A stretch of 64,000 nucleotides of DNA from the human T2T-CHM13v2.0 reference genome, Homo sapiens: assembly GCF_009914755.1 (NCBI RefSeq), contig NC_060927.1; one strand, written 5' to 3'. The notes under the pieces are model-generated. The model made no database searches and had not been told where the DNA came from. It worked only from the letters and a program-made list of their open reading frames with translations. Positions 1,450-39,530 of the stretch are shown here, piece after piece. The position numbers and the translations under genes are program-made. Each line of letters starts with the position of its first letter. Positions within the stretch are counted from its first letter, which is position 1.

Positions 1450-3059
1450 TCTCCAGAAAAGGTAATCAACTATAATATTTGATCTCTTACTGTACTTGGT
1501 TTATTTGTATAGATGATTATTTTGGAATTCACCAGCAGAGCACCTTAAAGCCTCCCCTGATACTATCTAAGCTGTCAGTTGTTTCTTCAAGTAAAAATGC
1601 TATTCCATGGAAAAAAAGATTACTTCAACCCTCTACTCAAAATGATAGCACATGTGCTTTTGGATAATCATCGTATGTTCATATACAGCTGAAAGACGTT
1701 TTACATACTTCTGGTTTCATCATACAGAATATTTTTAAAACACGTAGTAACAATCAAGCTTTCATAAAATTAATAAATTGTACCGATTCCTGAAAGACAA
1801 GCTTCAGTGAAACTTTTTTTCCCCTAGGAATACGTGATGGAAAAAAATAACATGACTATCGGTACAGGGTAGTGCCATTGAATTCATGCTAAGGTAACAG
1901 AAGTAATAACCGTCAAAGTAAATGACAATACAGTTGTTCCTGATATACCCTGATATTAAAATCTATCATTAAACTCTTTCAATATAATAGCACAATTTGT
2001 GTTCATTTCCAAGCATTTCCATAGAAGAAGATTTTCTTTGATGATTAGCTGGTACTGATACCCAATAAAAAAAGCAAAACTGCAAGTCCACATATTATCT
2101 GTAGATTCATTCACTTGTAAGACATAGGCATAATTCTACTGATAACACATGGTGTCAATCAATCTTTATGCATACAGCTAAGCATTTCATTTGACAAGTT
2201 ACCTTCTCATTGTAAAAGAACAGTTCTGTGATTTCTGTTACTTCTCATCAAGCAGGCATTCAGCAATGTCAACTGCATAAAGCTTTATTAATCATCTAGC
2301 TATTGAGTGCCTTTCTCTAACCAAGGTAATACAGTGTGATGATTTACCCTGTTAAGACACTTCAGTGGCTTTTTCATTTGCAGTTTGGAAAATTATAAAA
2401 TAAAATTAGAACTCCAAAATATCTTATTGTCTATATTTGAAATATTTAGATCTGTTTCCTTTAAAAGCTAAGCAATTCATTTCAAAACAATGCTACAATT
2501 TAACTGAGAGTATAAGCTTATTTGAAAATCTTTTGTTGTGTAAGACACAAGGGATAAATTATTAACATTTATAAAGCCAAAAATAATACCATTTTTTTAT
2601 ATCAGTGGTCACTACTTAAACTATTTTTTAAAATTTCTTTTGGAGTAAATTTCTGTACTTCATGGGCCAAAAATCTATTTTACCTTTTTCAGCATTGTTT
2701 GACATAGACAATGAATGTGTGGGCTGAAAAAGCAAGTCTTCTGGTTTCCCCCTTTAAACCAATACTCCACTTTGAAACATCAGAAAAATTCCCAACATGT
2801 AAATTTCAATAACCACTTATAATCTCATTAAATAACATTTTTTTGCATGCTTGCTATTGCACCAAATTATCTAGCCGTTCTTTTAATCAGACAGGCCTTT
2901 TTGGTCTCCTTTGCTTGGTCTCCTTTGCTTGCTCCTGCCTCTAAATGTCAAGAGTGTCTCAGTTGAGGGTCTTGCAAAAGTAGCAATTCCTTCTCTCTTT
3001 GGCATGGTCCTCACTATAATCATTCTGATATCAATTAAGGATAATAAAAATCAGGTGAA

Positions 3060-3976
3060 TTAAAGCGGCATGAAGAGAAATTCTAAGCAGAAAAGGGTGA
3101 GTCCCAGGCAAAACTCCACCCTCAAGCTGAAAAGCCTAAAACTTGCCCAAAGTGAGAATTTCTATCCCTGTTTTCTCACTCAAATGTTGCCTTTTCCTAA
3201 ACCACTCATAGCCCTGCCCCACCCTACCCTGTGCCTATAAAAATCCCAGACTCAGCTGGTAGACGGGACTGTGACTGGATATCCGAGAGAAGTGGCTTGA
3301 CTTCAGGGGGACAGCTTAATGGCATAACTTCAGAGAAGAATCTGGCTAGCAATTGCTGTAATTCAGAGGAAGATGAACTGCCTGCCCCATCCTCTTTTCA
3401 GCTCCCCTTCCTGCTGACGGCCACTTTCATCAGCAATAAAAATCCCCCCACATTTGCCATCCTTCAATTCATTTGTGTGATGCCATTTTTCCTGGATGCC
3501 AGACAAGAGCTCGGGAGCCACGAGTTTGGATATGAAAGGCTATCATACTGGCACTTTGCCCTTACTGGTGGAGGGCAGCTCCCTCATGCAGAAAGGCAAA
3601 GTTAACACTTAAGCCGTCTGTGGACAGCAGAGCTAAAAAAGCACTGCAACATGCCCTCTGGGGCTTCAGGAGTAGCAGCCACCCCTGCCTGGATGCTGCC
3701 ACTGGACGTGCACGGAGTTCCCTCTTGCCCAAAGCACACATGCTGGCTCCCACACCCACTCACCTGTGTACTCCCTGCCATGAGGGGTGAAACACACTGG
3801 GTCCAAGTGAGTGGAGTTTGATCCCACTGGCACTGAAGCAGCCGGCCATTTCCAGTGCTCATGCATTCCATTTGCTCATGCACTCCCTCCTGAGAGGAGT
3901 TGAGAGCAGTGGGCTGAGTCAATGAGGCACACCTGTCAGGGGTCCTGCGAGGGTGTCACGGAAATGTCCTGCTTCA
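3060..3976 (+). mobile_element. ERV1 solo LTR, LTR28/LTR27/LTR1-like
   Basis: 'gagaaattctaagcag..ccaccctcaag..gtgcctataaaaatcccagactcag' with a TATA-like box, aataaa at ~3436, and a 3' end 'gaaatgtcctgcttca'; 5' boundary uncertain. Confidence 0.8.
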
Positions 3977-29873: not shown

Positions 29874-30664
29874 AATCTCCTTTGGCAACACCCTTGCATA
29901 TAAACTCAGGATCAATACTTTGCATCCTTCAATCCAATCAAGCTGACACTCAGTATTAATCATCATGAGTTCACCCCTTATCAACGTGAACCCATATACA
30001 TCCCCTGAGATTATACATAATCTTCAAATAAAGAAAATAATAAGGTCATAATTATGCCTAACATAATACAACTACCCTTTGTACAACTGGAAACACACCA
30101 ATCCCCAACCCAAATGCTATTACATAAAGTTAACAATACTTAAATGCTCATATAAAATCAACAAATCTTATGTCACATGATAAAGGAAAAAGGAAATAAA
30201 ATGCAAATATTTTCTTAGTACAAGTGTATACATGCACAAACATGTTTTTAACAAAAGTAGGAGGAAATACTCATGACAATTACAGTCCTCTTATCTGCAA
30301 CTGGTCATGTGGCGATAGCTGGTATTGATGACTACCTTCTTCTACTACCCATTCTGTATTCCCTTTGCCTTCAGCAAGCATTTCAGCAGGTCGTGGTTTT
30401 ATTCCTGGTGGAGTGACCCAAACCTTCATTCCTTGAAGAGTCTGGGCCATTTGCGGTCCTGCCTGGATTGGGCTGTTGTAGTTTCCCATTGACCTTAATC
30501 ATAGGGCATGGTAATACTAAGAGACGCTATAATGGATCTTTTGTGTTCCATGTGTACTCTTCCTTACCTCCGTTGTGGAGTAGGACTGATTTCATCTTGA
30601 TAGTCTGGGTCAATCACCCCAGTCAACACTGTAACTGTCTTCTTAGCCTGTTGACTTAAAGGTA
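29874..30664 (-). mobile_element. Inverted HERV-L 3' internal segment plus the first ~95 nt of the MLT2A 3' LTR
   Basis: The reverse complement reads HERV-L 3' region then 'tgatgattaatactgagtgtcagcttgattggattgaaggatgc..gggtgttgccaaaggagatt'. Confidence 0.88.
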
Positions 30665-30911
30665 TATATGGTACTGTTTCTCCCATAGCCAGGATTCATG
30701 GATCCAGGAATCAAGGGGTAGAAGTGGAAGTGGCACCACTCACCATCACCCCTAGTGATCCACTAGCAAAATTTTCGCTGCCTTTTCCTGCGACTTTACG
30801 TTCTGCTGGCCTAGAAGTCTTAGCTCCAGAGGGGGAAACACTTCCACCAGGAGACACAACGATGATTCCATTAAACTGGAAGTTAAGATAGTCACCTGGA
30901 CACTTTAGGCT
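30664..30911 (+). mobile_element. HERV-L integrase C-terminal / dUTPase-start segment
   Basis: 'atatatggtactgtttctcccatagccagg..ccattaaactggaagttaaga..cctggacacttt'. Confidence 0.85.
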
Positions 30912-31021
30912 TCAGCTGTCAGTGAGGCCAGGATATAAAGCAGGCAGGAAAATGTAGAAAGGCTAGACTGGCTTAGCCTCCCAGCCTACATCTTTCTCCC
31001 TTGCTAGATGCTTCCTGCCCT

Positions 31022-31103
<82 letters not shown>

Positions 31104-31277
31104 ATATATGTGTATATATGTATATATATATATACACACACATATATACACATATATGTGTATATATGTGTATATATATGTGTGTGTATATATCTATACA
31201 CACACATATATACACACACACACACACATATATATATATATCTTATTAGTTTTGTCCCTCTAGAGAACCCTAATACA
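30912..31277 (+). mobile_element. MLT2A LTR, middle and 3' end, with an expanded TA/TG/CA tract
   Basis: 'ctagactggcttagcctcccagcctacatc' and the end 'tattagttttgtccctctagagaaccctaataca'. Confidence 0.9.
31026..31240. repeat. Compound (TA)n/(TG)n/(CA)n microsatellite
   Basis: About 215 nt of almost uninterrupted alternating purine-pyrimidine sequence. Confidence 0.97.
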
Positions 31278-32149
31278 TATGTTTATGGCTAAATCAAGTC
31301 TAAATTGTGAATTTAAGAAACATATTATTGTATTTCCTAAATTGTCACTAAATAACAGTTGTTATTCAACAGTTTATTTGATTTCTTTTAATATTAATAT
31401 TTATTTTCAGTTTGTATTACTTGTGGGAAATGTTTACATTTCAAAAGAGGATTCTGAAGATAAAATGTAGATATAGATAGTCTTGCCTCAGGCAGTATGT
31501 AATACTTAGACAATACCACAAAATAGTTATAAAACAAGTGCCATAAGGAGGATAAAAAATAATCTGCAAACTAGCATTTCAAGAAATGCAGGCTTAATCC
31601 ACATAGCATTTTAATGGGTTTTTCAGATAGTTCAAAAATATTAATTTTTGATAAGTTGAACCTTGACTTTTTAGTCTTAGTTTAATTTAGAGTTTTCAAA
31701 GGCAGTTACAATAACCAGTGTTTTCACATTGCTCCAGAGGCCGAGGTCATAGGTTTGACATATCGGCTGGCTTGTTGGTTTAACCTAAAAACCGTCGACT
31801 TCCTGGTGAAGAGTCCAAAGGCCTCTCACAAGTGGCCCTCAGTGAAAATGCTAATGTCACAGCAGGAACTCATCACCAATGGAGAGAAAAATACATAGAA
31901 TGGTGATGTTCTGACACAGACTGTAATATCTTTCTAGTCCAGACCCCACAAGCTAACACTTGCAATTTGACTGAACATCAAGGGATCATTTGAAAAGAGT
32001 AATCATAATTAATTTATGTCAGTAAATAATTGCTAGCTATGATCATCTACACACACAAATTTACTCATTTGTCACAACGAACAACTGTGCCAGTTATTGT
32101 TTCTTTGTGTGTGTTTACCTCTCTAGAATGAGTTGCTTTTACTTATATG

Positions 32150-32184
<35 letters not shown>
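32150..32184 (+). repeat. (CA)n microsatellite
   Basis: About 17 CA units. Confidence 0.95.
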
Positions 32185-32185
<1 letters not shown>

Positions 32186-34116
32186 TTCTGTAAGGATTAA
32201 AAGAGCTAATAACTGCAGTATATATTTACTTGAAAGTAATGTTGATTTTCTGCCAATGAAATAGTTATAAAGACAGTACTTGATTAAAGAAGCAGGACTT
32301 GGTATCCTTGTTGTGTGGAATATTACCTAGATGAAATAGTGGGCATGGACCAGACAGGTTCACAGGCCAAATTAAAATGCTCAAATCACGTGGTTTATTA
32401 AATATACATACTCCACACAGCATGAAGCAAGTTGAAAGAGATGAAGTACGTTAAACCATTTAAAATAGAGTGTCAGTGCATTGGAAAGACCATGCTATCT
32501 GAATTCATGTTACACAATGTTCAATTGTCCTCCCTCTCTGCCTTCCCAATGATGATTTGGTTACCACAGTGAGAGCTGAGGTTCAATCAGGGGGGCCCGG
32601 TGTCAGAAAGTACTCTGGGCAAATGACACCGTAACAAACAACAGAGAAACACACGTATAAATATGTTTGGCAAACAGATATAGCAGCCAATTAACTTGTT
32701 GAGCAGCCATAGGTCTTATGTGAGTTTATTGGGCATAGAACTTTCGAGGCAAACATGGCTGTCAACAATGGGTGCCTGAATTAAGACCTCATAAATAATG
32801 AGTGCTTCATATGCCTCATGTATATTTACCATATCCTATTGCTCAATGCCTGCCTGTGGGCCTCATGAATATTTAATGCCTCATGAATAAACTGCACTCT
32901 TGGTCCTTCCATCCTTCTCTATGTTTAACCTACACATGCTCTAATTACTAACTTCTTGTCTGTACTTAACACAAATTGTGAGTTTCTGGGTTTTTTTTTG
33001 CTAGAATTGGATATTCTCAGACAATACAAGAAATTCACATTGTAATCTCCTCCTCAGCTATCAAACTGAACTGTTTTCAACAACTAATATAATAAGAATT
33101 TTCAAAACAGGAAAAAGAGAATATGTGTATGGATACATTTTCATGTGTGTGTTGAGATGTAGGTGTGGGTGTATGTCTGGATGGATATAAGACAGATGAT
33201 TGACAGGCATTACAGACAGATAATAAAGATAGATATTTAGTTTACTTTTTCACAATTAATTGCATTCACATGTAATTTTGAGAAACTGACTTAAATGTAT
33301 AACAATTATTTTTGTTTGGAAACATGGGAGTCACAAGGTACATGGTTATTAAAGAAAATTTTTGAACATTAACATAAATTTAATTAATTGATAACAAAGT
33401 CAACAACAAAAGTATTTCAAAAGCAGGTGTTTTTTCTGAAGAGCTAATTAGCCATTGAGTTATTTTATAAAATTAAATGTATAATAATGTTAAAACTTAT
33501 CCTTTTGTCTCTTTACTTCTGCAAAGTTATTAAATCTGAATATAAAATAATATATATCCAGTTTATATTATTCTATGTGCCAACTACCATTACTACTGGG
33601 TAAGACGACCTTATCCTGTAGCATTTGTCAGCCTTCACATGTTCAATCTCCATAATATAATGTCTAGGAAATTCCATTTGGTAAACTGCATCAGTTTTTC
33701 AGTGTAATCCAGTTTGTCGATTTGTGTGTATGTGTATGTTGGGACTAAAAGTAGAAACAATTGTATAAGCTTTCTGTACACAGTATCTGTACACAGATAC
33801 TACATGGTGATAATGAACTTGCTTGAAAGAAAACAAAAAGGCAGAAAAACAGCCATAATATAGAATGTCAGTTTTAAATTAATCAGAATAATACACGTAT
33901 GTGGCTTTATGGATTAGATCACATTTACTTTTAAATGTTGCGTGTTTTGTTTTGTTCCTTCTGCAATCAAACTAAAATGAGACCAATTATACACCATTTA
34001 TACACTGCAAAGAAATGTACATGTTTGTGGAGAGCTGAATATGGGTGTGAAGTGATCAGTTCTAGTATTGATCTACATATTTAAATTTTAAATGATATAA
34101 AGTGAAATAAATATGA

Positions 34117-34453
<337 letters not shown>

Positions 34454-34485
34454 CACCAATAATTTTAAATGTATTAATTCAAATT

Positions 34486-35079
34486 GTATATCAAAAGTAT
34501 CTGAGATCGATCTCAATCAATTTAGGGAGTTTGTTTTGCCACGGTTAAGGACATGCTGGTAAACAGCTGAAGGAGATCCTGAAGACACGTGCCCAAGGTG
34601 GTCAGGTTCCAGCTTGGTTTTAGACATTTTAGAGAGACATGAAACATCCATCAGTACTTGTAAGGTATACATGAGTTCACTCCAGAAAGTCAGGGCAACT
34701 AGAAGGGGGGTGGGAGGCATCCAGGTCACAGATCAAGTTAAAGATTTTCTGATTTTCAATTGGTTGAAAGTGTTATTATTAACAGAAAGGAATGTCTGGT
34801 TATGATAAGGGGTTGTGGAGAACAAAATTTTATCATGCACATGAAGCTTCCAAGTCGGAGGCTTCAGAGAGAATAGATTGTACATGTTTCTTATCAGACT
34901 GAAAGAGTCTGTTCCATCAGTAATTTCAAAAGCGAGGAAGATATAATGAGAAGCATGTCCAGCTCACTCTTCCTATCATGCCTGAATTAGTTTTTCAGGT
35001 CAACTTTGGAATGCCCTTGGCCAAGAGTAGGGGGTCCATTCATATGGCTGGGGAAACTTTAAACTCGTTTTGGTTAACA
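34486..35079 (-). mobile_element. MER4 solo LTR
   Basis: 'tctcaatcaatttag..ttttgcc..gtgcccaaggtggtcagg..ggcttcagagagaatagattg..ttttggttaaca'. Confidence 0.85.
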
Positions 35080-35121
35080 AAAGTTAAATATTATCACCAA
35101 CTTTCCAACTTGCAACGAAAT

Positions 35122-36483
35122 TGCTATGGGATCTTTGGGGTGTCAGTTTTCAAGCCAGAAACCTGTGGCTGGTGTTGCCTTTGCCCAAGTTTTGCTCAGG
35201 CCCACTGGGCTGATTGTGCCAACTTGGCCTGGCAGTCTGTGCTAAGCTCATGCTACCAGCCTGGGTCCCATGCCTCCAAGGGAGACTGGAGACAGGCATG
35301 GAGCAGCAAGGGGTGTGTGAGCTCCTGGCCACTGCACAGTCAAACACACCAGCTGTTGCCACAGGGCAGGCAGCTCCAGGTACTGGCATGGCCACCAGCT
35401 CTATGAGATGTTGCAGCTAGACCAGGCACACCACAAGCAGCTTCACCAGCTGGGAGCAAGGAATGCTGCAGTGCTTGGAAGCTTGGAGACACCAGGAACC
35501 ACAGGGCTCCAAAGAGGGAGTCACAGCCCTGGCTTGGGGAGCTCCCAGGTCTGAGACCCCTGAAGGGCCATAGCTCATCTATCCTTTCCTTTACCGGCAA
35601 CAGGGTGAGCAAGGAGCATGTTTAAGCCCTGTGTGTGTTACAGCAACTCTTTTAGCTTTGCCATTCAGCAGGTTCCAAGTTCTTCTCCTGCAACCAGGAA
35701 GAATGAGGTATGTAGACAAGTGGAGGGTGAGCAGATGGAGATGAACTTTATTGAGCAATAGAACAGCTCAGAGAATACCTACATTGGGCAGCTTTTCTCC
35801 ATAGCCAGGGTGTCCTTACAAGTGTTCAGCTCCTAGCAGAGAGGGTGGCTCCTCTCTGCAGGCAGGTCATCCCAACAAGTGTTCTTTTCTCAGGAGAGAG
35901 GGTAGCTCCTCTCTGCAACTGGTCATTCTGACAAGTGTTCAGCTATCATCAGAGAGGGTAGCTCCTCTCTGCAGCTTGTCATCACATTGTCTGCACCTCT
36001 TGGCAGACAGGAAGCCCTAGAGAGGATGGCTCCTCTCTGCAGGCAGGCCATCCCATTGTCTGCAGCTATTGGCAGAGAGGGCAGACCATCTCTGCAGATG
36101 GTTGTCCCATCGTGTCTCTCTCCTCTGCTCTGCTCTGCCTGAGCCCAGGACTTTTATGGGCTTCAGAGGGGAGGAAGTGTGTGCTGATTAGTCCACGGCA
36201 GCCATGGGTGGGTCTGGAAAAGGCAACACAAGTTCCCAAGTGGGACTGGCAGCCTGGCCCCCAGCCTTCAGGCTCTCCTGGCCTGAAGGTAGAGCCCCAG
36301 CAGGGACCCGACCCTTTCCACCCAGGAACCTGTGTGCCTCCTGTTGCTGCTCATGGTGACTGGGCTCAGTTCTAACTCTGCTCTGAGGTTGGGGCAGTCA
36401 CTGACAGCAGGGAGAAGCCATGCAGCAGAAGCAGGCACTTCTAAACCTGCAAGGGCAGGGGCGGCCTTCCCAAGCCCTAAAAG
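35122..36483 (-). mobile_element. MER52-like LTR, truncated at its right-hand end
   Basis: 'tgctatgggatctttggggtgtc..'; antisense poly(A) signal 'ctttattg' at ~35746; ~50-bp internal repeats 'caagtgttcagct..gctcctctctgca' at 35815-36110. Confidence 0.8.
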
Positions 36484-37398
36484 TATATAAGTATACACTG
36501 TAAGTCTACTTGAGATCCAAAGGATTTGCCTTTGTGGAGTTTGAAGCAAAAACAAAAGAAGCAAAATCTACTGAAGTAGTTCAGATCCTAAAAAGAAAAA
36601 AAATGCAAAAAATTTAACAAGTATTATAAATAGTAAAGCTTTTTTTGCAATCATTTCGGTTTTTTATCAACCCACCAGAAGCAGCACCAAAGAAAACTGG
36701 CATGTTCTCTAAGAGTGAAAACTAAACCTATTTTGCTCTTTAATAACTGTAGTTGAAGGAAACTGAAATTAATGATAGCATTGTTACAGAAGAAAAGGAA
36801 AGGAAAAATAAGAAGAAAGGCTGAATGACGGAAGACAATGGCCAGGCTAAAAAGTTAATATTGACACAGGCAATACAAGCATCTGCAAAAGGAAAAAATT
36901 GAGAACTACATCTGGAGGCTCTGAAATAGATACTACTAAACCTCAAAAGCAACCTTTAAAGGTAAAGAAAAATTGAGAAAAACCTGAAATATTCAGCTTT
37001 CCTGAAGTCAGAACAGGGAAAAAGAGAAATAGCTCTGAAAATGCAGAATTCCTGGCTTCCAAACCAAAAGCAAATAAAATGTCTCAAAACACACATTTTA
37101 AAATCTTTAAAAGTTTACAAAGAAAACAGAGGTATAGCAACTTTAAGATTATAATTAGATAAACAAGGTTATGTTTTACCCATTTCATAGCCACAAATGT
37201 CTTAACTGGGTTTTTAATTGCTCAAGATTTAGAAATCTCTACTGAAGAGGAAAAGGATACTGAAGATATAAAAGATGACGCTCTCTTTAAAATAAGGAAG
37301 CATTAAAAAAAACATAAAAAGAAATATAATATGGGAAAGGTTATCCATTAAGAGTACTATCAAAATAAGTATATGGTAAAAATTCTATTGCCATTGGC
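36484..37398 (+). pseudogene. LARP7: Decayed, intron-retaining fragment of LARP7 (four consecutive internal exons plus introns)
   Basis: Pieces translate to ..GFAFVEFE.. (RRM1), FFINPPEAAPKKTGMFSK, EEKERKNKKKG*M, PEVRTGK, DLEISTEEEKDTEDIKD and PLRVLS, colinear with recalled LARP7 (FLNNPPEEAPRKPGIFPK; DIEISTEEEKDTGDLKD; VIPLRVLSK). Introns at 36576-36659 and 37132-37226; stops and frameshifts present. Confidence 0.88.
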
Positions 37399-37449
37399 AA
37401 TTGATATTACACTCCATATAATTGTTATATTTTTGTTTCATGTTCCCAT

Positions 37450-39530
37450 TGTTTGTAATTTACATATAAAAACAAATGATTTTTGTAGATTGGAATTTTT
37501 TTGGTAAATTGATTAACTGTAGAATATTTTGTGGATTTTTTTCTATGTAAAAAGTCAGGTTTATAGAATTAAGTCATTTGTCTTCTTTTTGTTTAAACTC
37601 TATGCCTTTCGTTACTTTTTGTGTTCTTTTTTAATTATTATTATTTTTTGTAGGAATAAGGTCTCATTAGTTTGCCCAGACTGGTCTGCAACTCCTGCCT
37701 CAGGTGATCCTCCCACCTCAGCCTCCCACAGTGCTGGGATTAAAGAAGTGAGCCACTGCGCTCAATCTACTTATGTTATTCAACTGGCTTGGACTTCCAG
37801 TATGATGTGTAATGAATTGTGAAAGTGGACTTACATTCTCTTTGGAGAAATATGCTTAATATTTTCACTATTAAATATGTTGTTAGATGAAGATTTTTCA
37901 TAAATGTTCTTTATAAATTAGAAGCCCCATTCTATTTATAATTCATTGAGTTTTTTCTTAAACAAGTTTATAGATTGTCAATTGTTCTTTTTGCATTGAT
38001 TGAAATAGTCTTATGACTAAAGAGACCACTTTTTAAAATTTTTGATGTCATTGTGTGAGTTAGAATAATGGATTTTTAAATATTAAACCAACTGTGTAAT
38101 ACTGGCATAAATCTAATTTTTCACTGGTATTTTCCTTTTTATATTTTGGTGAATTTGATTTTCTAAAATTTTGTTTTGTTTTATTTATAAAACATTTGAC
38201 TTTGTAATTTCATTTTAAAATTCTTGTGAGATTTTTGGATCAGGGTCTTCCTGGCCTCACAAAAGCAATTGGATATTTTTTTCTGTGTTGTTTTCTAAAA
38301 GAGTTTTGTTTGTTTAATATCAGTATTTCTTTTTTAAACATTTGATAGACTTCATCAGTGAAGCCATCTAGGCCAAGAGATTTTTGTGGAAGGGTTTTCC
38401 TTTAGGATTTTATTTTTTTAGTAGATATGGGGTATTCAGGTTGTCTTTATTCTTGGGTCAGTTTTTGCAATTTGTGTTACCTAAAGAACTTGTCCATTTC
38501 ATCTATTGCGTCTAATGGCATAAAATTATTCATAATATTCACTTACCTTTTTAGTGTCTGTAAGATCTTTGTACTATTTTATTTCATTCCTATTATTGTT
38601 AATTGATAATTCACCTATTTTTCATTTTCAGTCTTGCCATGCATGCATAAAATATCTTAATATTTTCAAAAAAACTCATTTTTTTCTTCATTGATTTTCG
38701 TTGTTTTTACATTTTCTAGTTCAGTGATTTCTGATCTTTTCTTTATTGTCTTTTCTCGTACTTATTTAAGTTTATTACTCTTACTTTTCTATCTTCTTGA
38801 TATGAAAACTTAGATTATTAAGTTTAACATGCTTTAATTTTCTAATGTAAGCCTTTAACACTATGAGTATCTAAGCACAATCAATATGTTGTATTATTAA
38901 TGTTTGTTTCAAAATTTTCTAAATTTCTCGTTCTTTTTAGTGTAATTTTTTAAATATCTTGCTTGATTTCAAATATTTAGGGCAATATTTAACTTTATGA
39001 TAGTCACAAATATATTCTGTATAGTGTTACTCCTTAAAATGTCTTGAGAATTGTGTTTTTTCTCTTAAGGATATTGTCTATTCATGTACACTCAAAAGAA
39101 TTTGTTTTCTATACTTGTTGGATTGGGTGCTTTGAAATGTCTACTAAGCCTAGTTGTCTTAAGTAAGGTACTAAAAGAAGTTGTTAAAGTTTCCAATTAT
39201 GAGGGTAGGTCTATATATATCTCCCATTATTTTGATTAATTTTTGAGTCATATGCTTTGAAGTTCTACTGTTAAATTTGTTTCTGTATTTGATGAATTGA
39301 CTCTTTTATCATTATGAAATGTTTCTCTTTATCTATGGTACTACTCTATTTATGTCTGTTTTGTATGATATTAATGTAGTTATTGCAGCTTTGTTATGAT
39401 TAATATTTGCATTTATATATGTGTATATATATACATACATATATAAAATATATATATATAGTTCTTCTCTTCTAAATAGCATATGGTTAGTTCGTGCTTT
39501 TTTATTGCGATATTTTACTTTTAATTAGAG
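37450..39530 (-). mobile_element. Ancient L1M ORF2 fragments
   Basis: T-rich antisense L1 motifs: 'ggacttccagtatgatg', 'cagtgaagccatctaggcc', 'gactcttttatcattatgaaatg'. Confidence 0.75.
37643..37765 (-). mobile_element. FLAM/Alu monomer
   Basis: 'aggtctc..gcccagactggtc..gatcctcccacctcagcctccc..gtgagccactgcgc'. Confidence 0.85.

What the first reader, a model, noticed from the sequence alone, without database searches (positions are those of the whole stretch)
36484..37398. Hidden LARP7 copy that retains its introns
Seen: a segment between a MER52 LTR and old L1 debris, missed by the ORF track because of stops and frameshifts. It encodes colinear LARP7 peptides (RRM1 GFAFVEFE; NPPEAAPKK; Lys-rich linker; PEVRTGK; EISTEEEKDT; PLRVLS). 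These are separated by intron-like inserts: gt..tttcgg (36576-36659, decayed ag), a ~37-48 nt stretch ending ttacag (to 36789), gt..ctcaag (37132-37226), and a decayed donor 'ataagt' at 37365. Known: LARP7 is the La-related 7SK snRNP protein, and ordinary retrocopies lose introns. Inference: this is not a standard processed pseudogene but a small DNA-level capture or a retrocopy of an RNA that was unspliced in the LARP7 sense. The heavy divergence suggests it is old.
Basis: partly seen in the sequence, partly recalled or inferred. Interest (0 to 1): 0.8.

Follow-up and report, generated by a model that had tools for sequence, protein, structure and literature searches.

The report
Retrocopy of cropped miR-302 host RNA
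The "LARP7 pseudogene" that keeps its introns is most likely an old reverse-transcribed copy of the RNA made from the opposite strand of LARP7, the miR-302/367 host transcript, and the copy starts just where that transcript is cut to release its last microRNA.

Summary
Window 36484-37416 aligns colinearly with the real LARP7 locus on chr4 (E about 1e-157). The alignment covers three small LARP7 introns and the first 42 nt of the next intron.

The copy probably does not descend from a LARP7 RNA. On chr4 the miR-302b/c/a/d/367 cluster lies on the opposite strand, and homology to the copy stops at the 3' edge of the mir-367 hairpin.

Two sister copies share that boundary. The chr7 copy (about 98% identical) has a perfect 17-bp target-site duplication and a T-run at the host gene's antisense poly(A) site. 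It begins exactly one base after the 3' end of mature miR-367-3p, which is the Drosha cut. The chr12 copy (about 74% identical) has a T-run at that poly(A) site and the same far boundary.

LARP7P4 is therefore best read as an L1-type retrocopy of the unspliced, Drosha-cropped, polyadenylated 3' part of the miR-302/367 primary transcript (MIR302CHG). Its poly(A) end has been lost at a junction with a truncated LTR-like repeat.

Spliced MIR302CHG retrocopies are in print (Sci Rep 2020). For human, that paper's Table S2 lists only the chr16 and chr6 copies. I rate this a new variant of a known kind, of moderate interest.

The parts
36484..37416 (-). The whole copy (LARP7P4). It is colinear with chr4 L002:1501-2517. 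The strand given is that of the inferred source RNA (MIR302CHG sense, which is LARP7 antisense). The LARP7-like reading is on the + strand.
   Evidence: 72.4% over 1018 columns, E about 1e-157; extension to 37416; no similarity beyond.
37365..37416 (-). Equivalent of the first 42 nt of LARP7 intron 8. This is the 5' end of the inferred source RNA, starting at the position matching the Drosha cut 3' of mir-367 (L002 2517).
   Evidence: In the last 18 nt, 13 of 18 bases match the parent, and both old copies carry a 10-nt insertion just before this stretch.
37227..37364 (+). LARP7 exon 8 equivalent (EISTEEEKDT ... PLRVLSK), with stops and frameshifts.
37132..37226 (+). LARP7 intron 7 equivalent. 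The parent's intron is 140 nt. The copy lacks a 46-nt AT-rich stretch, as does the chr12 copy.
36790..37131 (+). LARP7 exon 7 equivalent (Lys-rich linker, PEVRTGK), decayed.
36739..36789 (+). Remnant of LARP7 intron 6. The acceptor ttacag is kept and the donor side is deleted.
36660..36738 (+). LARP7 exon 6 equivalent (NPPEAAPKK).
36576..36659 (+). LARP7 intron 5 equivalent. On the minus strand it holds the unused polypyrimidine tract and AG acceptor of the last MIR302CHG exon (AG at 36588-36589).
   Evidence: The chr6 and chr16 spliced copies mark this acceptor.
36484..36587 (-). Equivalent of the first 109 nt of the last MIR302CHG exon (E3, L002 1609 down to 1501). On the + strand it overlaps the 3' part of LARP7 exon 5 (GFAFVEFE). 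The remaining roughly 135 nt of E3, both poly(A) signals and the tail are missing.
35113..36483 (+). It is complete at its 5' end but lacks at least about 500 bp of its 3' part, so the junction at 36483/36484 truncates both elements.
   Evidence: 1612 first-look candidates, 40 scored.

Best explanation
LARP7P4 is an L1-type retrocopy of an RNA transcribed from the strand opposite to LARP7. That RNA is the primary transcript of the miR-302/367 host gene, MIR302CHG.

The proposed sequence of events is as follows:
1. MIR302CHG is transcribed through LARP7 intron 8, exons 8-5 and their small introns, in antisense.
2. The Microprocessor (Drosha) crops the five hairpins from the first host-gene intron.
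3. The RNA downstream of the last cut (3' of mir-367) stays unspliced.
4. It is cleaved and polyadenylated at the host gene's own poly(A) site, giving an RNA of about 1.15 kb.
5. The L1 machinery occasionally reverse-transcribes it into the genome, full length from the Drosha-made 5' end.

This RNA is complementary to LARP7 exons and introns alike, so its copies look like LARP7 pseudogenes that kept their introns.

In the chr3 copy the poly(A)-side end (about 135 nt plus the tail) was later lost, at a junction with a likewise truncated LTR-like repeat.

What is shown:
- the colinearity with genomic LARP7, introns included;
- the position and strand of the microRNA cluster;
- the common boundary of three copies at the cut;
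- the target-site duplication and T-run of the chr7 copy, and the T-run of the chr12 copy.

What is inferred:
- that chr3 arose in the same way as its sister copies;
- that Drosha, rather than another process, made the 5' end;
- that L1 was the reverse transcriptase;
- that a later deletion removed the tail.
For: 1. Strand and place of the cluster. Rfam finds mir-367 and four mir-302 hairpins on the minus strand of chr4. In L002 numbering mir-367 lies at 2515-2582 and the mir-302 hairpins at 2645-3193. The antisense of L002 2539-2518 equals the miR-367-3p sequence printed in PMC7816280. The Drosha cut on the 3' arm therefore lies between L002 2518 and 2517.

2. Literature. The cluster lies in LARP7 intron 8 on the opposite strand. 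The host RNA has 2-3 exons and two poly(A) signals at the end of its last exon (bioRxiv 10.1101/497131, passages). I find ATTAAA at L002 1422-1417 and AATAAA at 1383-1378 on the antisense strand.

3. The chr7 copy is 98.4% identical over 243 nt. It is flanked by a perfect 17-bp direct repeat, has a T-run on the LARP7-sense 5' side at the antisense poly(A) site, and its other end is exactly L002 2517.

4. The chr12 copy is about 74-80% identical. It has a run of 8 T followed by L002 1362-1417 (3 of 1000 shuffles reach the score). By alignment it ends at the position matching L002 2517.

5. The chr3 copy ends at the same aligned position. Beyond it, similarity to the parent is at chance level (449 of 1000 shuffles reach the score). 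The 182 nt before it score 107 against a null of 16.4 +/- 2.8 (0 of 1000).

6. No copy carries a hairpin. A search with L002 2480-3700 found outside chr4 only the chr6 exon-1 piece, the last 38 nt of the chr7 copy and three short matches (33-40 nt) within query 1074-1120. Rfam finds no mir-302 or mir-367 in window 35000-39000 or in the chr12, chr7, chr6 and chr16 loci.

7. There is no A-run on the LARP7-sense 3' side of any of the three copies.

8. The chr6 and chr16 copies are spliced in the antisense sense, at a polypyrimidine-AG acceptor at L002 1610-1611. They match the published MIR302CHG retrocopies T2S5 (chr6) and T1S1 (chr16, IQCK) (PMC7692494 Table S2). This transcript is therefore a proven L1 template.

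9. The fold of pri-mir-367 puts the cut in the middle of a continuous helix. Three more base pairs follow the cut directly (to L002 2515), and after two small internal loops the pairing runs on to about L002 2498. A reverse transcriptase halted by the hairpin base would stop about 20 nt earlier.
Against: - The chr3 copy itself shows neither a tail nor a target-site duplication. Its poly(A)-side end is missing, and no remainder was found in the window. The strand of its source RNA therefore rests on analogy with chr7 and chr12.
- The chr3 end point rests on a weak terminal alignment: 13 of 18 bases, after a 10-nt insertion shared with chr12.
- The putative 11-bp target-site duplication of chr12 (9 of 11 bases) is not significant (59 of 300 shuffles do as well).
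- There are only three copies.
- The chr7 copy has an internal 791-nt gap with no splice-site motifs on either strand, which I cannot explain.
- Drosha cleavage is inferred from position only. No RNA data were available.
- No other mammalian genome could be examined.
Confidence: 0.75

Rival explanations
1. The copy is an antisense (MIR302CHG) retrocopy as above, but its 5' end was not made by Drosha. Either reverse transcription of an uncropped, intron-retaining primary transcript stopped at the mir-367 hairpin, or an internal promoter starts transcription there.
For: L1 copies are commonly 5'-truncated (recalled). The hairpin is very stable (-44.8 kcal/mol, z -4.95). No RNA data were available to show the cropped species.
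Against: The chr7 end, fixed by its target-site duplication, is exactly the base after the miR-367-3p 3' end. That point lies inside a continuous helix whose pairing continues to about L002 2498 on the 3' side. A halt at the hairpin base would fall about 20 nt short of it. Three independent copies share the point. In chr7 the first base of the insert directly abuts the target-site duplication, with no extra base between them, so there is no sign of a copied cap (my reading).
Confidence: 0.12
2. The copy is a small DNA-level duplication or capture of about 1 kb of the LARP7 gene (a non-processed pseudogene fragment).
For: The introns are kept. The chr3 copy has no tail and no target-site duplication. 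Exon and intron equivalents have diverged equally, though any dead copy would show that.
Against: No flanking homology to chr4 exists on either side. The boundary is the same as in a copy with a perfect target-site duplication and T-run (chr7) and in one with a T-run at the antisense poly(A) site (chr12). These lie on three different chromosomes and share no flanks. Three DNA duplications ending at a microRNA cut site would be an unlikely coincidence.
Confidence: 0.08
3. The copy is a retrocopy of an intron-retaining LARP7 pre-mRNA in the sense orientation (a semi-processed LARP7 pseudogene).
For: The three introns are very short (78, 71 and 140 nt), so they could be retained together. Variable LARP7-sense 5' ends with a shared 3' end look at first like 5' truncation.
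Against: No A-run follows the LARP7-sense 3' end in chr3, chr12 or chr7. I saw no AATAAA or ATTAAA on the sense strand in the roughly 100 nt before that end (reading). The T-runs sit at the opposite end in chr7, chr12 and chr6. The chr7 target-site duplication starts with AAAT when read in the antisense orientation.
Confidence: 0.04

Closest known systems
MIR302CHG retrocopies T1 and T2 of placental mammals (Sci Rep 2020, PMC7692494; passages and Table S2 read)
   Same: They have the same parental gene and strand and the same poly(A) site, and are L1-type insertions with a tail and target-site duplications. Two of the copies found here (chr16 in IQCK, and chr6) are the paper's T1S1-Human and T2S5-Human.
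   Different: The published copies are spliced (E1+E302+E3 or E1+E3) and start at the host gene's transcription start. The chr3, chr12 and chr7 copies are unspliced and start at the mir-367 cut. They contain LARP7 exons 5-8 with their introns in antisense. They are not among the human rows of Table S2. The words 'LARP7', 'unspliced' and 'intron retention' do not occur in the paper's main text.
[quoted passage not shown]
   Same: [quoted passage not shown]
   Different: Those copies are the hairpin itself with a tail attached at its end. Here the copy is the long by-product downstream of the last hairpin, with the gene's regular poly(A) site, and it holds no hairpin.
Processed LARP7 pseudogene (the reading implied by the gene name LARP7P4)
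   Same: It has sequence similarity to LARP7 exons 5-8 and carries disabling stops and frameshifts.
   Different: The introns are present. There is no tail on the LARP7-sense 3' end, and the boundaries are those of the antisense transcript.
3' product of Microprocessor cleavage of lncRNA-hosted pri-miRNAs, normally degraded by Xrn2 (review PMC6150625, passage read, citing Dhir et al. 2015, which I did not read)
   Same: It is the same RNA species: the piece downstream of the Drosha cut in a non-coding microRNA host transcript.
   Different: According to that passage this product is degraded by Xrn2, and the cleavage serves as 3'-end formation on such genes. The copies here imply that at MIR302CHG the product sometimes survives, reaches the poly(A) site and is polyadenylated.

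Membership tests
Processed (retrotransposed, spliced) LARP7 pseudogene | Parent introns absent | tested here: not met
   Three parent introns and 42 nt of a fourth align colinearly.
Processed (retrotransposed, spliced) LARP7 pseudogene | A-rich tail at the LARP7-sense 3' end | tested here: not met
   There is no A-run after about 37416, nor in the chr12 and chr7 copies.
L1-type retrocopy of a MIR302CHG transcript | Homology confined to the transcribed unit of MIR302CHG, ending at transcript-defined points | tested here: met
   The far end matches the mir-367 Drosha cut. The near end of chr12, chr7 and chr6 is at the antisense poly(A) site. In chr3 the near end is truncated.
L1-type retrocopy of a MIR302CHG transcript | Poly(A) tail, seen as a T-run on the LARP7-sense strand | tested here: not met
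   It is absent in chr3, where the junction with a truncated repeat lies at 36483/36484 and no remainder was found. It is present in chr12 (8 T), chr6 (7 T) and chr7 (8 T in all, 3 of them shared with the target-site duplication). For chr3 I read this as lost, not as never present.
L1-type retrocopy of a MIR302CHG transcript | Target-site duplication | tested here: inconclusive
   chr3: one end is lost, so this cannot be tested. chr7: perfect 17 bp. chr12: 9 of 11 bases, not significant (59 of 300 shuffles). chr6: none, as the paper's 'possible L1-mediated deletion' would predict.
L1-type retrocopy of a MIR302CHG transcript | Host-gene introns removed (as in the published T1 and T2 copies) | tested here: not met
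   The antisense acceptor at window 36588-36589 is unused and the sequence runs through it. I therefore class this as a variant and not as a member of T1 or T2.
Non-processed (DNA-duplicated) pseudogene | Homology continues into flanking non-transcribed DNA, or its ends are unrelated to transcript ends | tested here: not met
   There is no flanking homology. Three copies on three chromosomes share one end at the microRNA cut.

The most novel reading that the evidence does not exclude
The 3' by-product of Microprocessor cropping of a non-coding pri-miRNA can escape 5'-3' decay, be polyadenylated while still unspliced, and serve repeatedly as an L1 template. This would have happened at least three times, once recently and twice long ago (about 100 million years by a rough calibration). 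Such 'cropped pri-miRNA tail' retrocopies would be genomic fossils that record the order of cropping, splicing and polyadenylation in the germ line or early embryo. They may form a general, unrecognised class, now filed as intron-containing or 'unprocessed' pseudogenes of whichever gene lies on the other strand.
Probability: 0.35. Interest if true: 0.65.

Novelty: new variant of a known kind. Interest (0 to 1): 0.55.

Why it matters
1. It corrects an annotation. LARP7P4, and by the same reasoning the chr12 and chr7 LARP7-like fragments, would be copies of MIR302CHG and not of LARP7.

2. It explains, without any unusual DNA-level mechanism, why a "pseudogene" keeps its parent's introns. The same trap exists wherever two genes overlap in antisense.

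3. The shared start at the mir-367 cut is natural, heritable evidence about RNA processing. It suggests that a Drosha-cropped, unspliced, polyadenylated 3' fragment of the miR-302/367 primary transcript exists in cells that contribute to the germ line. It also suggests that this has happened both in a recent copy (about 2% diverged) and in two copies whose divergence suggests roughly 100 million years. This bears on how microRNA host lncRNAs are terminated and degraded. It also gives a simple genome-wide test: compare retrocopy 5' ends with annotated Drosha cut sites.

Tried and rejected
- **Missing poly(A)-side part of the chr3 copy (L002 1366-1500).** A sensitive BLAST of the whole window found nothing. 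Local alignment against window 30000-36483 scored 20 against a shuffled null of 17.1 +/- 2.3. The 100 nt just upstream of the repeat also gave nothing (173 of 500 and 76 of 500 shuffles do as well).
- **Homology beyond the cut.** It is at chance level for chr3 (449 of 1000) and chr12 (306 of 1000).
- **chr12 target-site duplication.** It is suggestive by position but not significant (59 of 300).
- **Splice motifs at the internal junction of the chr7 copy (L002 1483 joined to 2275).** No GT..AG or AT..AC on either strand (my reading). Left unexplained.
- **Alternative poly(A) signal to explain the chr3 break.** TATAAA lies on the antisense strand at L002 1504-1499, but a signal there would place cleavage further on, not at 1501. 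Not adopted.
- **Downstream flank as 'L1 debris'.** Window 37417-37630 matched only itself. Because the search skips very common words, this is not evidence against it being a repeat.
- **Single origin of chr3 and chr12.** They share no flanks. Each is at least as close to the parent as to the other. Shared indels against the parent could be the parent's older state. This cannot be settled without an outgroup.
- **chr8 fragment (L002 1438-1602, 75%).** It is too short to assign to LARP7 or MIR302CHG.
- **Sources that were closed.** Barroso-del Jesus et al. 2008 (PMC2573233) is not held, so the annotated middle exon E2 of the host gene could not be placed. The PDF and alignment supplements of PMC7692494 could not be read. 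They may show further human copies that Table S2 does not list.

Full report
**1. The observation**

Window 36484-37398 gives one colinear BLASTN match to chr4:115955200-115956205 (L002:1501-2506). The match has 72.4% identity over 1018 columns with 115 gap columns, E 6.7e-157.

The chr4 locus is the real LARP7 gene. The open frame L002:1432-1596 translates to 55 residues identical to residues 130-184 of PDB 4wkr_A, 'La-related protein 7'.

Reading the parent sequence and its frames shows that this part of LARP7 has unusually short introns. They lie at L002 1597-1674 (78 nt), 1769-1839 (71 nt) and 2191-2330 (140 nt), and the next intron starts at 2476.

In the five-sequence alignment A1 these map to window 36576-36659, about 36739-36789 and 37132-37226, and the start of the next intron maps to 37365.

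Identity without gaps is 78.3% in exon equivalents (653 sites) and 79.1% in intron equivalents (258 sites). The K2P distance is about 0.25-0.26.

A pairwise alignment extends the homology to about 37416.

**2. Other copies in the same genome**

A search of the whole assembly with L002:1200-2800 listed 16 matches:
- 6 on chr4 itself: the query, four short repeats within the locus and one inverted match;
- chr3, which is this copy;
- chr7 (two pieces) and chr12 (two pieces);
- chr6;
- chr16 (two pieces);
- chr8;
- two 35-nt matches, on chr3:69.87 Mb and chr19. Their query stretch is an A-run, so I discount them as low complexity.

Several of these also include LARP7 intron sequence. That prompted a look at the other strand.

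**3. What lies on the other strand of the parent**

Rfam at gathering threshold finds five microRNA hairpins on the minus strand of chr4. In L002 numbering, mir-367 lies at 2515-2582 and four mir-302 hairpins lie between 2645 and 3193.

The literature agrees. [quoted passage not shown] The human host RNA has 2-3 exons and two poly(A) signals at the end of its last exon (bioRxiv 10.1101/497131, passages).

By that numbering, the LARP7 exons in the copy are exons 5 (partial), 6, 7 and 8.

On the antisense strand of the parent I find:
- a TATA box at L002 3373-3366 with an exon 1 after it;
- a long polypyrimidine tract with an AG acceptor at L002 1611-1610, so the last exon E3 starts at 1609;
- ATTAAA at 1422-1417 and AATAAA at 1383-1378.

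The antisense of L002 2539-2518 equals the miR-367-3p sequence printed in PMC7816280 (passage). The Drosha cut on the 3' arm therefore falls between 2518 and 2517. That the 3p arm's 3' end is made by Drosha is established knowledge, recalled.

**4. The sister copies show how the copies arose**

*chr7 (L008, read on its minus strand).* This copy consists of L002 about 1368-1483 joined to 2275-2517. It is 98.4% identical over 243 nt.

It is flanked by a perfect 17-bp direct repeat. On the LARP7-sense 5' side a T-run precedes the sequence that lies 12-14 nt from the antisense AATAAA. On the other side the insert ends exactly at L002 2517, and the target-site duplication follows directly.

Read in the antisense orientation, this is a classical L1-type insertion: target-site duplication, RNA copy, short A-tail, target-site duplication. 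The duplication starts with AAAT, which is compatible with the L1 endonuclease preference (recalled). Its first base is the base after the miR-367-3p 3' end.

*chr12 (L010).* This copy has a run of 8 T followed by L002 1362-1417 (score 24 against a null of 14.9 +/- 2.4; 3 of 1000 shuffles reach it). It then has an internal deletion of roughly L002 1420-1620, followed by L002 1621-2517 interrupted by an Alu.

It ends at the aligned equivalent of L002 2517. A possible 11-bp target-site duplication (9 of 11 bases) sits directly at both ends, but it is not significant (59 of 300 shuffles).

*chr6 (L009) and chr16 (L013).* These are spliced in the antisense sense. In chr6, E3 (L002 1609 down to about 1365, then 7 T) is joined to exon 1 (L002 3338-3270 region). 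In chr16, E3 is joined to a piece at L002 2885-2905 next to mir-302a.

They correspond to the published MIR302CHG retrocopies (PMC7692494, Table S2):
- T2S5-Human: chr6, 319 bp, between CNKSR3 and SCAF8;
- T1S1-Human: chr16, IQCK intron, interrupted by an AluSx1.

The lack of a target-site duplication at chr6 fits the paper's 'possible L1-mediated deletion'. The longer exon 1 in chr6 fits the paper's alternative donor SS2, which it says is mutated in the present human gene.

**5. The chr3 copy**

The chr3 copy spans L002 1501-2517.

Its far end aligns to the same point as chr7 and chr12. It shares with chr12 a 10-nt insertion just before that point, and 13 of the last 18 bases match the parent.

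Beyond the cut, similarity to the parent is at chance level (score 11 against 10.6 +/- 1.5; 449 of 1000 shuffles). The 182 nt before it score 107 against 16.4 +/- 2.8 (0 of 1000).

Rfam finds no mir-302 or mir-367 in window 35000-39000. The single match there, at E 0.39, is to an unrelated snoRNA family.

The copy runs unspliced through the antisense acceptor (window 36588-36589). It holds only the first 109 nt of E3.

At 36483/36484 it abuts a dispersed repeat that occupies 35113-36483 (1612 first-look candidates of which 40 were scored). Other members of that repeat continue for at least about 500 bp beyond the matching point. Both elements are therefore truncated at the junction.

The simplest reading is a later deletion that removed the end of the repeat together with the last roughly 135 nt and the tail of the retrocopy. 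This is an inference. No remainder was found.

**6. Mechanism**

The three unspliced copies (chr3, chr12, chr7) lie on three chromosomes and share no flanks. All begin at the mir-367 cut: one exactly, fixed by its target-site duplication, and two by alignment.

None carries a hairpin. A search with L002 2480-3700 found outside chr4 only the chr6 exon-1 piece, the last 38 nt of the chr7 copy and three short matches (33-40 nt) within query 1074-1120.

The predicted pri-mir-367 structure places the cut inside a continuous helix whose pairing continues to about L002 2498. A reverse transcriptase stopped by the hairpin would be expected to stop at the base of the stem, not at the cut.

I therefore propose that the template was the 3' product of Microprocessor cleavage. 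This RNA comprises the rest of host intron 1, whatever lies between, and E3. It would be unspliced and polyadenylated at the regular site, about 1.15 kb long.

[quoted passage not shown] The copies imply that at MIR302CHG some of it survives long enough to be polyadenylated and used by L1.

**7. Age**

The mismatch fraction between the chr3 copy and the parent is about 0.21-0.22.

PMC7692494 Table S4 gives an expected substitution frequency of 0.20-0.23 for its T1S1 event, dated 105-96 Mya (row seen). By that calibration the chr3 copy is of the order of 100 million years old. This is a rough estimate: it comes from one alignment, without an outgroup, and the parent's exons are under constraint.

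The chr7 copy, at about 2% divergence, is recent. No other mammalian genome was available to test presence or absence.

**8. Comparison with what is known, and novelty**

Retrocopies of MIR302CHG are known (PMC7692494), and that paper suggests Drosha-made 5' ends for mir-373 retrocopies. The copies it describes from MIR302CHG are spliced and start at the promoter.

Its human rows in Table S2 are three: T1S1 (chr16) and T2S5 (chr6) from MIR302CHG, and 498-S1, which derives from mir-498 and not from MIR302CHG. A search of that table for chr3, chr12, chr7 and chr6 returned nothing, because it uses NC_ accessions.

The words LARP7, unspliced and intron retention are absent from the paper's main text. 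Its PDF and alignment supplements could not be read.

Literature searches gave the following:
- A search for LARP7P1-P4 or 'LARP7 pseudogene' found one paper, which names LARP7P4 once (title on genetic studies of eczema; search listing only).
- A search for MIR302CHG with 'pseudogene' found two papers.
- A search combining Drosha, pri-miRNA and retrocopy terms listed no paper on retrocopies of cleavage by-products among the 15 shown of 84.

I therefore rate the finding as a new variant of a known kind. I cannot see GENCODE or HGNC notes on these pseudogenes.

**9. Verdict**

The finding is real, but it is named after the wrong parent gene. Interest is moderate.

The explanation is ordinary in its machinery: L1 acting on a polyadenylated RNA. 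It is unusual in its template, a cropped, unspliced pri-miRNA tail.

The weakest point is that the chr3 copy has lost the end that would prove its strand.

Noticed in passing
L008 1501-1873 (chr7:101628997-101629369, minus strand): The young chr7 copy lacks L002 1484-2274 (791 nt). The junction has no splice motifs on either strand and no microhomology. It could be a template jump during reverse transcription or a later deletion.
   Followed up: partly
L009 1501-1816 (chr6:155744497-155744812): This is a spliced MIR302CHG retrocopy (published as T2S5). Its exon 1 runs about 25 nt past the donor used today, and the matching site in the present human gene has no GT. It has 7 T at the poly(A) site and no target-site duplication.
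   Followed up: partly
L014 1501-1665 (chr8:130325059-130325223): A 165-nt fragment is 75% identical to L002 1438-1602. Similarity seems to run a little into LARP7 intron 4, which would favour an origin from host exon E3. The fragment is too short to decide.
   Followed up: partly
L002 2225-2270 (chr4, LARP7 intron 7): The parent's intron 7 holds a 46-nt AT-rich, internally repetitive stretch that both old copies (chr3 and chr12) lack. It probably expanded in the parent after the copies were made.
   Followed up: no
window 35113-36483: The LTR-like dispersed repeat next to the copy is complete at its 5' end but lacks at least about 500 bp at its 3' end, compared with members on chr11, chr2 and chrX.
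   Followed up: partly
window 34155-34448 and 37632-37761: These stretches also match the flanks of unrelated loci fetched here (L025, L027). They are probably Alu-type repeats, and the second looks Alu-like by eye. They lie on either side of the repeat plus retrocopy block.
   Followed up: no
L002 1499-1504 (antisense strand): A TATAAA hexamer lies on the antisense strand right at the point where the chr3 copy breaks off (L002 1501). I judged this a coincidence, because cleavage would be expected further downstream.
   Followed up: partly
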